Positions 1 to 4,495 of a DNA stretch of 4,495 nucleotides are shown piece after piece. The DNA is from Candidatus Micrarchaeota archaeon. Its GTDB lineage: Archaea; B1Sed10-29. The stretch covers positions 1-4,495 of the forward strand of contig CAYLXZ010000040.1 in assembly GCA_964388265.1 (NCBI GenBank), read 5' to 3'. A program made the position numbers. The stretch's first letter is position 1; every line of letters begins with the position of its first letter.

Positions 1-3000
1 CTTTCTCTATTAAGTTTTTAGTGAAGTCTTTTTCCTTGAGTTCTATGTAGGCTAGGTATCTTCCGTAGCTTCCTTTCTCACCAGCTTCTGAATCGAAGAT
101 AAGAGTTATTTCTCGGTTTTCAAGGTTTTTCTGGGTGTAGTTGCTGGCTTTCTCACTCCATTTAACCAGACATGAATTGTTCCGTATTCCGGTGTATTCA
201 CCTGGATCGTGGTCTTTTTCATCAGATTCAGGTGTATCTACCCCTAACAGCCTTATACTCTCGTCGTAACCTTTTACTTCGATTGTGTCCCCATCTATAA
301 CTCTAGTTACAGTGGTTTCTTTAGCTCTTGGTTTGTTTGGGTTTAGGTAGAGGGCTGCTGCGGCTACTAGGCCGATTATGATTAGTGTCTTGGTTGTTTT
401 ACGCAAATCTATCCTTTTAATTTAGAGGTCGTATTCCCAGTATCCTCTTTGTTCTTCAACTATCCTTATCGTGGTTTCTCTTGGGTCTTTGGATTCGTAA
501 ATGGTTTTCCCGATTACTTCGAAGTTGTTTTCCCTTTCCAGGCAGTCTCCTGGTGAGGCTTTTCCCTCCTCGAAGCCATTGCAGAATACGAGCATGTCTT
601 TCTTGGTTAATTCATTGGCTTTCTTCAGGTCTTCTAGATGGTTTCCTGCTATGTCCACTCCATCTACATCTAGTTGATTGGCTAGTTCCGCGGTTTCTTC
701 GAATGCGTTCTCCATGAACCTGCTTTTCTCTTCGTGTGGTAGGCTGAGTGTTAGGATTAGGCCTTGGTCTGGGTATTCGTCCTGTATTGCTTTTATTGGT
801 TCTTTATCTATGAATGCTGGTATCGTGATGGCTTCGAATCCTGCTTCGTAGAGTTCACTAGCCATCCATAGTACATTTCTGTCTACGTCACAGAGGTTGT
901 AGTCAGCTATGAATGGTACGTCGAACCTTTTTATGACTTCTTCTATTCCTAGTATTCCAACTGCATCTCCAAATGACCTGTTCACCATTACTCCTGCGAT
1001 TAAGTCGTCTATTTCTTCTATTGTATCTACCGCTGTCTGTATCATCGTGGATTGATCTATGTCTTCGTGTACGGGTAGTGCTATGTCTAGATTGAAGATT
1101 AGGCTGGTGTTCTTCTCCTGTGCCTGGTCCATTAGTCTGTGGTTGAACGGTGTTTTCCTTGTATTCATTCTATCTCCTCGGGTTCTTCTCTCAGTTCTTT
1201 ATGTGCTTGGGAACATAAATATTTTGAATGGAATAAGAATCTAATCGTAAGTGTTTTTAAAGATAAGGAACTTGAGTTAAATGGAATCAAATATGGATAA
1301 AATGATCATTGGAATAATCCTAGGCACAGTCCTAATGCTNNNNNNNNNNGTTGCCTGGGACCAGGAGCACCAAGTGAAGAAAAACCGGAGAACGTTTACT
1401 TAGGATACTCAGACGCTGATGAACATGGATACATGAAAGCTAAAGTAACTGTAGAGAATGGGGATATATCAAGCGTTAATTTAACTGAGATAGATGAAAC
1501 CGGTTCAGTTAAAGGCGAGGAATATCCTCATGACGCGTTCCACGAAGCTATGGATAAACTGCCAGGGCGTTTCGTGGAGGCAGATAGCCATGAAGTTGAA
1601 GCAGTAACAGGAGCAACAGGAACTTCTGACAAGGCAATGCAAGCTGTGAAGAGAGCTCTGGAGAAAAAAGAGAACCCTGATGCTGTTTTTAATGGCACTT
1701 TCTTCGGAGCATCGGACAGTGAAGGAGAATCCAGGAACGTTGCCTGGGTAACAGTGGAAGACGGAGAAATCACGGACGTGAAACTGGAAGAGTACAAAGA
1801 TGCTGAGGAAGAAGAATTAAAGGATGAAAATTATTCTCACGACGCGTTCCACGAAGCAAAGGATAAACTACCAAGCCGATTCATAGAAGCAAACAGCCAT
1901 GAAGTTGAAATAGTAACAGGAGCAACTGTTAGCTCTGAAAGATGGTCCGAAGCAGTTAAGAAAGCTCTTGAGAAAGCAGGAATATCCTGATAACCTTTAT
2001 TTATAGGTGTTCCAGGACTCTGTTTTTTCTATTTCTCCATTTTCCCTAATGCAGATTCCTTCAGTTCCCGCGGATTCAAGTATCTTTAAGCCTTTTTCTG
2101 GGCCTGCGACGAATGCACCTGTGCTTAGTGCATCGGCTTCTAGCCCTGTTTCACTCACTACAGTTACACTCAGGTATCCCTCCGCGGGTTCTCCAGTCTT
2201 TGGATTTATTATATGGTGGACTTTTTCTTCTCCTATCAGGTGATATCTTCTGTAGTTACCAGAAGTTGATACAGCTTTATTTTTAATCTGGATCTTCTCT
2301 ATTATCTCTCCTTGGTTTTCAGGGTCGGAGATCCCTATCTCCCACGATTTCGGTCCTATTGCTCTGATCTCTCCTCCTATATCTATGATAGCGTCTTTTA
2401 TTCCTTTTTTCCTCAGGGTTTCCGCGGCTCTGTCAGCTGCGTATCCTTTTGCTATTCCTCCTAGAGATATCTTCATGTCTTTTTTCTTGAGCCTGGCTCT
2501 GTTGTCTTCTTCATCTATCTCTAGGTTATCTAGATCAACTAGTTTCTGGTGTTTCTCCAGCTCTTCTCCCTTTGGTATTGTTCCTTTTTCTTTTACTTCC
2601 TTCATCCAGAAGTCCACGAGCGGTTTAACCGTGATGTCAAAGGATCCGTTGGTTAGAGATCCGTATTGCTTTGATTTCTTTAGGATCATGGTGGTTTCAG
2701 GTGAAATTTCAACCCACTCGCCTCCGGGTTCTTGGTTTATCTTGTATACATCGCTCTCCGGGTTACTTTCATCCATCTTTTTCTCTATTCTACGTATTTC
2801 TTGGAATGCTTCTTCTATGGCTTCTTTCCCGGTTTCTTTGTTGTAGGTAAGGATTTTTATTGATGCAACGGTATCCATTATCATTGGATCGGTTTTCTGT
2901 ACCTTTGACTTTTCGTAGACTTTTAATCCGTTGTCTTTCTTTATTTTGTAGTAGTTTTCTCCGTCTCTAATCTCCCATGTCTCGTTATTTAAAGTGGAGA

Positions 3001-4495
3001 CGGATGCTTCTTTGGAGAGCGTTCTTCCTTTTTCCTGGAACTTTTTCATGGTAGCTGATCCTATCTTGCTGGAGTTAATTTCCTCGAGCACTTTCTGTGA
3101 TTCATCTTCTTCGATGGTGAAGACATGTCCTTCTTCCACGGATGTTCTTGGAGCAAAGATGTTCATAAGAGCCCCGGATAGTAGGGTTAGAAGGGCAAGG
3201 ATAGTGATTCCTGTTACTATTTTTCCCCGTAGCCCCGACCCGATGGTTCTTGAGAACAGGAATAAACCCGCTAAGAGACCTAGTTGAATAGATAACATGC
3301 TGAAGGCAAGTCCTGTGATCCCTATATCCATATAGAAAGTGGTTATTATCCCTATTATCCCTACTCCGAGTCCGAAGAACCTGGAAAGCAGAACTGTCCC
3401 TGCTTTTTCTTCTGAAAACAATTTAGAGGATTTTATCCTTGCTAGAGTAGCTGGGATCACGGCAAGAGCCATTACCCTAACCGCGTTCACCCCCTCGAGA
3501 AAACCTGGAAACACATGAGAAGTTATGTAAGGCGCTGAAAGGAAAACGATGAAAGCCAATATCACAGAGAAGATGATTCCCAGTCTCTCGGTTTTTCCTG
3601 TTTTGTTTCCACGGGCTTTTTCAGGTAGAAGAAAGAAGAACAGAGTGTTTGGAAGAACAGCTAATAGAGTGAATATCCTGTAGCTGAATTGGTAGATTCC
3701 TAGTATAGCCATGCCTGGGAATAGGATTCCTATGAGGATTTTATCCATGAAGTGCATGGAGACCTTTCCGATGTTCGCGACCCAGGCCTTGAAGGAGAAA
3801 ACAGCTTTTTGTCTTAATTCACTGAAATCAAGGTTTCTAGGTAAGTAACGTAGTATTAATCCTCCGAAGAGGAAGTAAGAGGCTGCTAGTCCTCCTATTA
3901 TCCCTGCTATTGAACCTAAAACAAAATAGAGAACTATTGGAAGAACCAAGGCGGTTGAACGTGTGCCTATCCAGATCCACATGTATCTCTTGTATCTTCT
4001 TTTACCTAGTTCTGTGTAGAAGGTAAGGGAGAACAGAGCCATGGCTATGACTAGAAAACCGATGAGCCATGGAAAGGAAGAATCAACATATAGAAATAAG
4101 GACAGCGCGGTTATAGCTCCGACCAGTATGCTTGATATCAGTACTAGTGCCACTGACCCGGTTATTAGTGCTTTATCTTCTTCTTTGGGGTAGTAAGTGG
4201 CTATTGTTTTTCCTAGACCCATTACCGCGACTGTTGAAACCAGTGTTGCGATGGATATCAGCCAGGTTAGGTGTCCGTAGGCTGTTGGATGTAGAACCAG
4301 GACTAGAGTTAGCCAGAATGCAGTTCCGAGTAAGGTGGCGGTGGTTTGACCTATTCCTACGTAGGTTAATCCTTTTTTATCAGGTTCTTTGGGTTCTTCT
4401 TTGATTTCTCCAGGGGTTGCCATGGGGTAAATAATGGTTTTATCCATTAAAAGATTTGAAGAACTTAATTCCCAGTAGTTTCAAGTTTTTTATAT

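What a model noticed while it worked through the whole genome (the two positions that open the first line are those of the whole stretch)
1280..4447. MOP-flippase::ApbE fusion with a PplA-like double FMN-binding protein, acquired by this DPANN archaeon
g00810 (816 aa) joins an N-terminal ~11-helix membrane domain of the Polysacc_synt (MOP flippase/exporter) kind to an outward-facing ApbE flavin transferase, and the divergent neighbour g00809 is a membrane-anchored protein with two FMN_bind domains that each keep the flavinylation site (TGATGTS, TGATVSS). I read the fusion as a one-protein device that exports FAD and at once uses it to flavinylate the neighbour outside the cell, giving this fermentative, ATP-synthase-less archaeon an extracellular flavin electron outlet like PplA/FmnB of Listeria. 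If true, the fusion names the long-sought flavin exporter for extracytosolic flavinylation (a MOP transporter, as Bfe of Shewanella is) and shows [...]
Evidence so far: Pfam: ApbE 524-793 (E 2e-86; call 16), Polysacc_synt 25-268 at E 4e-4; 11 hydrophobic helices at 60-423. 41 homologs of 448-1428 aa at E<=1e-10, 38 of them with ApbE, of which 22 also carry precomputed PF01943 or PF13440 (MOP flippase); named ones are Dehalococcoidia, Chloroflexi, Acetothermia. g00809: two FMN_bind domains; its true start lies upstream of a 10-N scaffold gap and reads M..MIIGIILGTVLML, a membrane anchor. 0 of 30 other genomes of the phylum have a match to g00810, FMN_bind 0 of 30 (relatives.tsv, call 15); yet the contig is native: neighbour g00808 has a 70% identical ortholog in a genome of the same family. 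The genome has no ATP synthase, respiratory complex or cytochrome fa [...]
(Added by a program. Inside this text positions count along the whole contig: contig position 1 is position 1 of the stretch shown here. "Call 12" and the like, gene names such as g00115 and contig names such as C1 are that model's own, and its searches are not shown. The text may have been shortened before it was handed on; [...] marks where a part breaks off. The agent that wrote the report below was given it as the finding of a first reader that could run no searches.)

Follow-up and report, generated by a model that had tools for sequence, protein, structure and literature searches.

The report
Flippase-type transporter fused to flavin transferase
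One gene joins a 12-helix transporter of the sugar-lipid flippase kind to an outward-facing enzyme that attaches flavin to proteins, beside a likely target protein, and it may show how some microbes get the flavin donor FAD across the membrane.

Summary
The core observation holds. g00810 (1997-4447, minus strand, 816 aa) is a MOP/Wzx-fold 12-helix domain, a 13th helix, a small insert and an intact ApbE. Loop charges (26 K+R inside, 0 outside) put ApbE outside the cell. g00809 is a membrane-anchored protein with two FMN_bind domains, each carrying TGAT.

Corrections:
- The two genes are convergent, not divergent.
- There are 13 helices, not 11.
- The family is not mainly bacterial: 17 of 66 Hadarchaeota genomes carry the fusion, against 2 of 401 sampled Dehalococcoidia.

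In Hadarchaeota the fusion is the only confident ApbE. It lies beside rnf in 14 of 15 readable loci and co-occurs with FMN_bind. The published FAD exporter subunit EetB was found in 0 of 66 genomes.

All fusions form one clade inside stand-alone flippase-like proteins. The membrane domain is as conserved as the enzyme and has fusion-specific residues (R257 replaces Gln).

FAD export by the membrane domain is therefore a good but unproven inference. The PplA-like electron-outlet reading and all genome-level claims are unsupported or could not be tested here.

The closest relative, on an archaeal contig, keeps the same gene pair. This scan has already noted the same fusion type on other DNA (e1-3677290).

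The parts
1997..4447 (-). g00810, 816 aa: fusion of a MOP-fold transporter domain, a 13th helix, an insert and ApbE (stop codon 1997-1999)
   Evidence: ORF; Pfam; AlphaFold2 model with mean pLDDT 82.3; full-length homologs at 40-56% identity
3239..4378 (-). 12-helix MOP (Wzx/MATE-fold) core, residues 24-403; residues 1-23 are a Lys-rich cytoplasmic tail
   Evidence: Domain model pLDDT 85.4, pTM 0.84. VIA-align gives MATE 5xjj Z 35.2 and WzxE 9g95 Z 33.7 over 382-388 residues. Foldseek gives WzxE at E 3e-8. Pfam Polysacc_synt is below cut-off.
3146..3232 (-). 13th transmembrane helix (residues 406-434), which carries the C-terminal part to the outside
   Evidence: Helix H406-434 lies beyond the part that aligns to MOP structures (17-407). 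Inside loops hold 26 K+R and outside loops 0.
2879..3145 (-). Insert of about 88 aa (residues 435-523), predicted small alpha/beta domain. Among the 25 aligned sequences it is present only in the window, P0001 (=L088) and P0002.
   Evidence: Alignment columns 464-539; secondary structure; no Pfam hit; no usable Atlas hit
2000..2878 (-). ApbE FAD:protein FMN transferase domain (residues 524-816)
   Evidence: Pfam ApbE 286 bits. PDB by sequence: TM1553 1vrm E 1.4e-49, Listeria FmnB 7esa E 1.1e-39. By fold: 1vrm TM-score 0.87 on the target. Family-invariant GGIAKGYA, TSG.Y, HHI..P, ADA.ST.
1293..1339 (+). Probable true start of g00809: MDKMIIGIILGTVLM, the first part of a membrane anchor or signal peptide, cut by the scaffold gap
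   Evidence: The ortholog P0034 has a full N-terminal hydrophobic helix at the same place.
1340..1349 (.). Scaffold gap of 10 N. Its true length and the reading frame across it are unknown.
1352..1990 (+). Rest of g00809: acidic linker (CLGPGAPSEEKPE..) and two FMN_bind domains (about 1427-1663 and 1733-1981)
   Evidence: PDB match to a domain of a multi-FMN protein (8p2b, E 7.6e-4). 58% identical to the L088 ortholog (P0240 row).
1607..1618 (+). Flavinylation motif 1, TGAT within E-A-V-T-G-A-T; the predicted FMN-bearing Thr codon is 1616-1618
   Evidence: Sequence. Motif definition D-x-x-[S/T]-G-A-[S/T] from passages of PMC12052999.
1916..1927 (+). Flavinylation motif 2, TGAT within E-I-V-T-G-A-T; the predicted FMN-bearing Thr codon is 1925-1927

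Best explanation
g00810 belongs to a single-origin family in which a 12-helix transporter of the MOP superfamily (closest to Wzx/PST sugar-lipid flippases) is joined through a 13th membrane helix to an ApbE flavin transferase that sits on the outer face of the membrane.

Shown or well supported:
- The domain fold, the N-in/C-out topology and an ApbE domain with its conserved motifs intact.
- The neighbouring g00809, a membrane-anchored protein with two FMN_bind domains, each carrying [S/T]GA[S/T]. It is the probable substrate and would receive FMN on the last Thr of each TGAT.

Inferred: the transporter domain exports cytoplasmic FAD and hands it to the tethered ApbE. An archaeon with no closed periplasm would then not lose the FAD by diffusion.

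In most family members the client is the Rnf complex (RnfG, and by published precedent RnfD). In the small clade of this window the client is the two-flavin protein. What that protein reduces or oxidises is unknown. In the closest locus (L088) it sits next to a His-rich polytopic membrane protein that may be an MsrQ/ferric-reductase-like electron conduit. No such gene lies on this 4.5-kb contig.
For: Fold and enzyme:
- MOP structures match at Z 35.2 (MATE 5xjj) and Z 33.7 (WzxE 9g95) over 382-388 residues. ApbE structures match with TM-scores 0.82-0.87 on the target.
- By sequence, 1vrm gives E 1.4e-49 and FmnB 7esa gives E 1.1e-39.

Topology: 13 helices, with K+R 26 in inside loops and 0 in outside loops.

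Substrate:
- Two FMN_bind domains with TGAT.
- The same convergent pair occurs in the closest relative L088 (fusion 58% identical over the membrane domain, partner P0034).

The transporter domain is under constraint:
- Mean pairwise identity is 60% for the membrane domain against 63% for ApbE over 25 sequences.
- All 40 fusions form one clade (SH-aLRT 97) inside stand-alone relatives.
- Residues kept in at least 92% of the 40 fusions are absent or rare in 124 stand-alone relatives: R257 (Gln in 97% of stand-alones), H53, W62, W159.

The fusion does the housekeeping ApbE job:
- In 66 Hadarchaeota genomes, every ApbE match of 80 bits or more (18 matches in 17 genomes) lies in the fusion frame, or in a fragment at a contig end in G466.
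- 16 of the 17 fusion genomes have FMN_bind, and 16 of the 17 FMN_bind genomes have the fusion.
- rnf genes lie within 3.5 kb in 14 of 15 readable loci.
- The EetB family PF07456 was found in 0 of 66 genomes, with the control ringing in 2 of 14 control genomes.
- The two Dehalococcoidia genomes with the fusion show no other ApbE and no EetB.

Precedents: MOP-superfamily flavin exporters (Bfe, YeeO) are recalled, not from a call. Earlier scan notes describe repeated physical coupling of ApbE to FAD-export parts (ApbE-EetA fusions).
Against: - No result shows FAD transport.
- The one stand-alone relative whose surroundings I could read (L125, close to the fusion clade in the tree) lies in a glycan-synthesis cluster with GT2, GT4, DegT and a GFO/IDH/MocA oxidoreductase. 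The ancestral job of the domain was therefore probably sugar-lipid flipping.
- None of 79 other ApbE loci with up to 8 kb of flank holds a relative of this domain. There is thus no support from unfused gene pairs.
- Pfam Polysacc_synt is below its cut-off for the window protein, and MatE gave no hit at E up to 0.1.
- Six Dehalococcoidia-type loci have no flavinylation target nearby; there the fusion lies next to Mrp antiporter genes.
- Both g00809 motifs have Glu where the published motif has a 'strictly conserved' Asp. An Asp-to-Ala change had only minor effects in one published test (passages of PMC12052999).
- The N-terminus of g00809 is broken by a gap.
- Many of the genomes searched are incomplete, so absences are 'not found'.
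Confidence: 0.5

Rival explanations
1. Anchor or docking scaffold only. The 12-helix domain is a retired glycan flippase that merely holds ApbE at the membrane, perhaps against Rnf or the target. FAD reaches the outside by another route or by leakage.
For: - The stand-alone relative L125 sits in a glycosylation cluster.
- No relative of the domain lies next to 79 ordinary apbE genes.
- Ordinary ApbEs need only a lipid or single-helix anchor (passages of PMC12052999).
- There is no direct evidence of transport.
Against: - An anchor would not be expected to stay as conserved as the catalytic domain (60% against 63% mean pairwise identity).
- An anchor would not be expected to keep invariant polar residues (D235, K236, Y252, R257, R163, E276, E287) or to gain fusion-specific ones.
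- The known exporter subunit EetB was found in 0 of 66 Hadarchaeota genomes.
Confidence: 0.25
2. Still a lipid-linked glycan (or other lipid) flippase. The protein is bifunctional, and the two halves serve different processes that only share a location.
For: - Weak Polysacc_synt and Polysacc_synt_3 matches run through the family.
- Residues conserved in stand-alone relatives are kept in the fusions: D235, K236, Y252, P266.
- The fold is tied between WzxE and MATE.
Against: - Fusion genes lie beside rnf or FMN_bind genes, not glycosyltransferases, in the loci read.
- They co-occur almost one-to-one with FMN_bind in Hadarchaeota.
- The Gln-to-Arg switch at position 257 suggests a changed substrate.
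Confidence: 0.1
3. Flavin salvage device. The outward ApbE-family domain acts like Treponema Ftp, a FAD pyrophosphatase, and the membrane domain takes up the flavin product. This would suit a small symbiotic archaeon that may not make flavins.
For: - Some ApbE-family enzymes hydrolyse FAD in the periplasm (abstract of PMC4767422 in the listing; PDB titles).
- DPANN archaea commonly lack cofactor pathways (recalled, not tested; no genome is held).
Against: - MOP transporters characterised so far export (recalled).
- An adjacent, conserved protein with two flavinylation motifs points to transferase use.
- In most of the family the partner is Rnf, which needs transferase activity.
Confidence: 0.07

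Closest known systems
ApbE / Ftp / FmnB flavin transferases (PF02424), including 'RnfF' genes placed next to rnf operons
   Same: The C-terminal 293 residues are a typical ApbE by sequence and fold. The domain is predicted to lie outside the membrane. In most of the family the gene lies next to rnf, a placement known for ApbE (passage of PMC5736913).
   Different: Known ApbEs are lipoproteins or are soluble (passages of PMC12052999). This one is anchored by a conserved 13-helix domain with a transporter fold. In the window the neighbour is a two-FMN protein, not rnf.
Listeria EetB-FmnA-EcfA/A' FAD exporter with FmnB, and ApbE-EetA / EetB-EcfT fusions
   Same: The proposed logic is the same: FAD is exported for an extracytosolic ApbE, and export parts are genetically or physically coupled to ApbE (passages of PMC9973259; scan notes).
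   Different: The transporter class is unrelated: ECF type driven by ATPases, against a MOP fold. PF07456 was found in 0 of 66 Hadarchaeota genomes and in neither of the 2 fusion-bearing Dehalococcoidia genomes. Export is shown by genetics for Listeria and only inferred here.
Bfe of Shewanella and YeeO of E. coli, MATE-family flavin exporters (recalled, not from a call)
   Same: Same superfamily fold (MATE structures Z 30-35). The proposed substrate is the same.
   Different: No MatE Pfam match at E up to 0.1. By sequence the domain is nearer to Polysacc_synt/Wzx. Those proteins are not fused to ApbE.
Wzx/PST flippases (WzxE, PDB 9g95) and the roughly 385-aa stand-alone archaeal relatives
   Same: Best Foldseek membrane match (E 3e-8) and weak Polysacc_synt hits. 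The fusion clade is nested in stand-alone 12-helix proteins. One of these lies in a glycan cluster, and sources name some of them O-antigen/teichoic acid exporters.
   Different: The fusion has an extra 13th helix plus ApbE, fusion-specific invariant residues (R257 for Gln, H53), and neighbours that are rnf or FMN_bind genes instead of glycosyltransferases.
PplA of Listeria and the 'multi-flavinylated proteins' of Meheust et al. 2021 (PMC8238504)
   Same: g00809 has two FMN_bind domains, each with [S/T]GA[S/T], behind a membrane anchor. It matches a domain of a characterised multi-FMN protein (8p2b).
   Different: The NCBIfam PplA model scores 31 bits against a 325-bit cut-off. No Ndh2, EetA/B or quinone genes are visible. 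The first motif residue is Glu, not Asp. A lipobox cannot be judged because of the gap.

Membership tests
ApbE (PF02424), FAD:protein FMN transferase | Sequence match to the family model above its curated cut-off | tested here: met
   286.1 bits against a 25.6-bit cut-off, residues 524-793. The NCBIfam ApbE equivalog scores 138 bits, below its 498-bit equivalog cut-off.
ApbE (PF02424), FAD:protein FMN transferase | ApbE fold | tested here: met
   Foldseek gives 1vrm at E 1.2e-17 with TM-score 0.87 on the target, and FmnB 7esa at 0.83.
ApbE (PF02424), FAD:protein FMN transferase | Catalytic His and Mg/FAD-binding residues in place | tested here: inconclusive
   The blocks GGIAKGYA, TSG.Y, HHI..P.TG and ADA.ST are invariant in the family and align with TM1553 and FmnB. 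I did not map the published residues (His257, Asp285, Ser241 of the Vibrio enzyme; passage) one by one.
ApbE (PF02424), FAD:protein FMN transferase | Extracytosolic location (typical, not universal) | tested here: met
   13 helices with 26 K+R in inside loops and 0 in outside loops. This is a prediction only.
ApbE (PF02424), FAD:protein FMN transferase | Transfers FMN from FAD to the Thr/Ser of the motif | not testable with these tools
   Needs a co-expression or in vitro assay.
MOP superfamily (MATE / PST-Wzx / MurJ) | 12-helix fold of two 6-helix lobes | tested here: met
   VIA-align Z 35.2-27.8 to twelve MATE/Wzx chains and Z about 20 to MurJ, with the next unrelated fold at Z 7.6.
Polysacc_synt (PF01943), PST flippases | Match above the Pfam gathering score | tested here: not met
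   The window protein scores 20.2 bits against 28.2. Some relatives pass: L098 42.4, L100 39.6, L088 30.5 bits.
MATE family (Bfe/YeeO-type flavin exporters) | MatE sequence signature | tested here: not met
   No MatE family among the Pfam hits at E up to 0.1. Only the fold is shared.
MATE family (Bfe/YeeO-type flavin exporters) | Exports FAD or other flavins | not testable with these tools
   Inference only.
ECF-type FAD exporter (EetB PF07456 / FmnA) | EetB or EcfT domain | tested here: not met
   No such Pfam hit in any window protein. PF07456 was found in 0 of 66 Hadarchaeota genomes.
FMN_bind (PF04205) flavinylation substrates | FMN_bind domain above cut-off | tested here: met
   75.4 bits against a 22-bit cut-off, two stretches.
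FMN_bind (PF04205) flavinylation substrates | Motif D-x-x-[S/T]-G-A-[S/T] | tested here: inconclusive
   T-G-A-T is present twice, but the first motif position is Glu in both copies (E-A-V-T-G-A-T and E-I-V-T-G-A-T). The same holds in the ortholog P0034. The review calls the Asp strictly conserved yet reports minor effects of an Asp-to-Ala change.
PplA (NCBIfam NF041941) | Match above the model cut-off | tested here: not met
   31.3 bits against 325.
PplA (NCBIfam NF041941) | Lipoprotein signal and an EET locus (Ndh2, EetA/B, DmkA/B, FmnA/B) | tested here: inconclusive
   The N-terminus is cut by the 10-N gap, with a Cys right after it. None of the partner genes lies on the 4.5-kb contig. No genome is held.

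The most novel reading that the evidence does not exclude
The MOP domain is a dedicated FAD exporter that feeds the ApbE tethered to it. It would be a third, archaeal-centred solution to FAD export, after the ECF type of Listeria and the MATE type of Shewanella. It arose once from a glycan flippase and marks how Rnf is matured in Hadarchaeota. In the small clade of this window the machine was re-used to build a two-flavin surface protein that, together with an MsrQ-like membrane partner seen in the sister locus, gives a tiny symbiotic archaeon a redox outlet at its surface.
Probability: 0.2. Interest if true: 0.85.

Novelty: new variant of a known kind. Interest (0 to 1): 0.62.

Why it matters
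ApbE works outside the cytoplasm and needs FAD there. How FAD crosses the membrane is known from experiment only for Listeria's ECF-type system, and from memory for MATE exporters in a few bacteria.

A transporter fused to ApbE is a concrete and cheap-to-test candidate for that missing step. It is conserved as tightly as the enzyme. In one archaeal phylum it is the only ApbE found, it nearly always lies beside rnf, and no EetB was found there. It also gives point mutants to try (R257, H53, D235/K236).

For this genome it shows that a very small archaeon keeps a complete kit for making a membrane-anchored two-flavin protein outside the cell. The use of that protein is open.

[quoted passage not shown] That filter may have hidden this family.

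Tried and rejected
- Complex prediction of the MOP domain against the ApbE domain, with FAD riding along: no answer (median score 0.13, mark 0.32). This is neither for nor against docking.
- Local profile search of 79 other ApbE loci for a relative of the membrane domain: none found.
- The 'stand-alone' hits P0032 and P0033 look like a truncated gene and a frameshifted gene, not natural split forms.
- Names for the closest relatives: the listing of cluster members gave none for P0001, P0002, P0014, P0038 and P0040. The taxon of the window and of L088 therefore stays unconfirmed.
- Atlas search of the 436-523 insert: no usable hit.
- PDB sequence search of the L088 216-aa membrane protein: nothing at E up to 10. 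Pfam: nothing meaningful.
- Rfam on the window: no match.
- Earlier findings by sequence: none.
- I considered and dropped 'ApbE in the cytoplasm' because of the 26:0 charge split and the odd helix count.
- Literature: 'ApbE' + 'flippase' returned 9 papers, none about such a fusion judging by titles and abstract starts. 'ApbE' + 'FAD exporter' returned only the Listeria paper. PMC8238504 and PMC12052999 hold no 'flippase', 'Polysacc' or relevant 'fused' passage. Supplementary tables of PMC8238504 were not opened and could list such genes.

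
Full report
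**What is in the window.** The 4495-base contig holds four genes:
- a staphylococcal-nuclease-like gene (2-406, minus strand, running off the contig);
- g00808, a divergent member of the OMP-decarboxylase family (422-1168, minus strand);
- g00809 (plus strand);
- g00810 (1997-4447, minus strand, 816 aa).

g00809 begins at an ATG at 1293 that reads MDKMIIGIILGTVLM. It is cut by ten N (1340-1349) and resumes in an open frame at 1352 (CLGPGAPSEEKPENVYLGYSDADEHGY...) that runs to the stop at 1988-1990. The stop codons of g00809 and g00810 are six bases apart, so the two genes are convergent.

**g00810.**
- Pfam gives ApbE at 524-793 (E 3.7e-85) and Polysacc_synt at 25-268 (E 4.3e-4, 20.2 bits, under the 28.2-bit cut-off).
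- An AlphaFold2 model built on 25 homologs has mean pLDDT 82. A model of residues 1-435 alone has pLDDT 85 and pTM 0.84.
- Both models show 13 long helices, not 11. Residues 17-407 superpose on MOP-superfamily transporters: MATE 5xjj Z 35.2, WzxE 9g95 Z 33.7, MurJ Z about 20, and the next unrelated fold Z 7.6. Foldseek ranks WzxE first among membrane proteins (E 3e-8).
- The 13th helix (406-434) lies beyond the MOP core.
- Loops assigned to the inside hold 26 Lys+Arg and loops assigned to the outside hold none. The N-terminus is therefore cytoplasmic, and everything after helix 13 is outside.
- The ApbE part matches solved ApbEs by sequence (T. maritima TM1553 E 1.4e-49, Listeria FmnB E 1.1e-39) and by fold (TM-score 0.82-0.87 on the target). 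It keeps the family's invariant blocks.
- Between helix 13 and ApbE lies an insert of about 88 residues. Among the 25 aligned proteins only the window, P0001 and P0002 have it. It has no recognisable relatives.

**g00809.**
- It has two FMN_bind stretches (E 5.6e-21), each with T-G-A-T (1607-1618 and 1916-1927).
- The published motif is D-x-x-[S/T]-G-A-[S/T] (passage of PMC12052999). Here, and in the ortholog, the first position is Glu. The same passage reports that changing that Asp to Ala had minor effects.
- The protein resembles a domain of a characterised multi-FMN protein (8p2b, E 7.6e-4).
- It scores 31 bits against the NCBIfam PplA model, whose cut-off is 325, and scores equally weakly against RnfG models. 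'PplA-like' therefore describes the architecture, not membership.
- Relatives of about 225-250 aa at 45-60% identity are numerous. One is labelled Dehalococcoidia. Four-domain-sized forms occur in Natranaerobius and Natronospora.

**The family.**
- A word-indexed search found 33 proteins, 31 of them with ApbE. Most are 695-800 aa and align over their full length at 40-56% identity.
- Two apparent stand-alone forms (P0032, P0033) look truncated or frameshifted.
- The membrane domain is as conserved as the enzyme domain: mean pairwise identity 60% against 63%, and 52% against 52% to the window.
- An exhaustive profile search with the membrane domain found 677 proteins at E up to 1e-3 and 180 at E up to 1e-30. 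Most of the best 150 are stand-alone proteins of 375-400 aa that cover helices 1-12. They carry weak Polysacc_synt matches and source names such as O-antigen/teichoic acid export protein; one is from an Odinarchaeia bin.
- I built a tree of 55 membrane domains (40 fusions and 15 stand-alones; quick IQ-TREE, SH-aLRT only; rooted on distant stand-alones that did not form one side of a branch). It puts all fusions in one clade (support 97). The deep branches of that clade are all from Hadarchaeota genomes.
- The window groups with L088 and P0002 (support 98). That group is sister to the clade holding the Dehalococcoidia-labelled proteins, and both lie inside a set that also holds a Hadarchaeota sequence (support 99).
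- Several positions are kept in at least 92% of the 40 fusions and rare in 124 stand-alones. The clearest is R257 in helix 8, where 97% of stand-alones have Gln. H53, in the first outside loop, is never His in stand-alones.

**Distribution and neighbours.**
- In a sample of 401 Dehalococcoidia genomes, 2 have the domain. In the 66 genomes held for Hadarchaeota, 18 have it, 17 as fusions.
- In those 66 genomes, every ApbE match of 80 bits or more lies in the fusion frame, or in a fragment at a contig end. The only other matches are three of about 24 bits.
- FMN_bind occurs in 17 of the 66 genomes, and 16 of those are fusion genomes.
- EetB (PF07456) was found in none of the 66, while the control rang in Thermotoga and Lactococcus. 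Many of these bins are small and incomplete, so these are 'not found', not 'absent'.
- Of the 15 Hadarchaeota fusion loci with a readable flank, 14 have rnf genes within 3.5 kb. They usually lie tail-to-tail with rnfCDGEAB and once on the same strand. The fifteenth has an FMN_bind gene 6.5 kb away.
- Metagenome contigs add three more rnf-adjacent cases and one with rnfD/rnfG 2-3 kb away. Six Dehalococcoidia-type loci have the fusion between fatty-acid genes and a PsiE/Mrp antiporter cluster, with no target nearby.
- One of the two Dehalococcoidia genomes has rnfCDGEAB elsewhere as its only FMN_bind locus. Neither shows a second ApbE or EetB.
- The locus that matters most for this window is L088, the contig of P0001. 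It encodes an aRF1-type release factor, so it is archaeal, and its proteins are very acidic. Its fusion is 58% identical to the window's membrane domain and has the same insert. It is followed, convergently, by a clear ortholog of g00809 with a full N-terminal membrane helix.
- Divergent from that ortholog lies a 216-aa, His-rich protein of five to six helices. It has no Pfam family. There are two weak leads to the ferric-reductase/YedZ(MsrQ) kind: Atlas score 0.91 to clusters in which 14% of members carry PF01794, and the C-terminal part of MamZ at E 0.06.
- At the corresponding place the window has g00808, so no such partner is seen here.
- The stand-alone relative in Hadarchaeota (L125) lies among GT2, GT4, DegT and GFO/IDH/MocA genes, a glycan cluster.

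**How it most likely works.**
- Shown or strongly predicted: a MOP-fold domain, a 13th helix that turns the chain outward, an ApbE domain with its conserved motifs intact outside the cell, and a conserved adjacent protein with two flavinylation motifs.
- Inferred from published knowledge of ApbE: FMN is transferred from FAD to the last Thr of each TGAT.
- Inferred from comparative evidence only: the MOP domain exports the FAD.
- In favour of export: the constraint on the domain, the single origin, the changed invariant residues, the fusion's role as the sole ApbE found wherever Hadarchaeota have Rnf, the lack of EetB there, and the recurring coupling of ApbE to export parts in other lineages.
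- Against export: no transport data, an ancestry among glycan flippases, and no unfused pairing of this domain with apbE in 79 loci.
- I put the full mechanism at about 0.5, a pure anchor at 0.25, a still-active glycan flippase at 0.1 and flavin salvage at 0.07.
- What g00809 does with its flavins is open. Nothing here shows an electron donor or acceptor.

**Comparison with what is known.**
- ApbE next to rnf is known (passage of PMC5736913).
- Multi-flavinylated proteins and MsrQ-like partners are described in PMC8238504 (passages).
- FAD export by EetB/FmnA is described in PMC9973259 (passages).
- I found no paper describing an ApbE joined to a MOP/flippase domain (searches; term look-ups).
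- Databases already label these proteins 'FAD:protein FMN transferase'.
- This scan noted the same fusion type on another genome (e1-3677290). My results agree with that note. They add the Hadarchaeota centre of diversity, the rnf linkage, the fusion-specific residues and the two-FMN partner clade.

**What stays open.**
- No genome is held for the window. The claims on ATP synthase, fermentation, the phylum-wide absence and the DPANN identity could not be tested.
- Gene transfer into this lineage is plausible, because the window's clade is nested in Hadarchaeota diversity and its closest relative sits on a compositionally different archaeal contig. The donor is not shown to be bacterial.

**Verdict.** This is a real and well-conserved fusion with a likely substrate next door. 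It is a new member, with a variant partner and an extra insert, of a family that the papers I searched do not describe. The family offers a testable candidate for FAD export. The extracellular electron-outlet story is not supported by present evidence.

Noticed in passing
L088:10274-10924 (+): A 216-aa, His-rich membrane protein of 5-6 helices lies divergent from the g00809 ortholog. It has no Pfam family. Weak leads point to ferric-reductase/YedZ(MsrQ)-like proteins (Atlas 0.91 with PF01794 on 14% of cluster members; MamZ C-terminal part at E 0.06). It could be the transmembrane electron conduit of this system.
   Followed up: partly
Hadarchaeota genomes G001, G405-G467 (loci L001, L119-L134): In this phylum every confident ApbE match found is the fusion with the MOP domain. 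It co-occurs with FMN_bind (16 of 17 both ways) and lies beside rnf. EetB was found in none of the 66 genomes.
   Followed up: yes
L001:10139-10387, L096:7442-7708, L098:2589-2855, L120:5344-5625: In several Hadarchaeota loci the gene in the rnfB position is only 82-93 aa (PF04060 FeS domain, no ferredoxin domains). Other loci have RnfB-like proteins of 262-347 aa.
   Followed up: no
L133:3037-7746 (-): In one Hadarchaeota genome the fusion gene lies on the same strand as the rnf genes and upstream of rnfA/rnfB, instead of tail-to-tail.
   Followed up: no
L086, L089, L091, L092, L093, L095: In the Dehalococcoidia-type loci the fusion is always flanked by an acyl-CoA synthetase or ketoacyl synthase on one side and by PsiE plus an Mrp-type antiporter cluster on the other. 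This is conserved synteny without an obvious functional tie.
   Followed up: partly
L125:3469-4623 (+): A stand-alone 384-aa relative of the membrane domain lies in a glycan cluster (GT2, GT4, DegT aminotransferase, GFO/IDH/MocA oxidoreductase). It is close to the fusion clade in the tree.
   Followed up: yes
window 2879-3145 (-): An insert of about 88 aa between helix 13 and ApbE occurs only in the window, P0001 and P0002 among the 25 aligned sequences. It is predicted to be a small alpha/beta domain (pLDDT 74-80) and has no relatives in Pfam or the Atlas.
   Followed up: partly
window 422-1168 (-): g00808 is a divergent member of the OMP-decarboxylase family (Pfam E 1.7e-8; NCBIfam pyrF models far below their cut-offs). 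Unnamed homologs at 69-79% identity exist on contigs of up to 114 kb. Its real activity is unclear.
   Followed up: partly
window 1-4495: AT skew follows gene orientation strongly: about -0.35 to -0.49 over the soluble parts of the minus-strand genes, and +0.2 to +0.3 over g00809. It fades over the membrane domain.
   Followed up: no
window 1352-1354: The first complete codon after the scaffold gap is Cys, directly after the hydrophobic N-terminal segment. A lipobox-type lipidation site is possible but cannot be judged across the gap. The L088 ortholog has no Cys there.
   Followed up: partly
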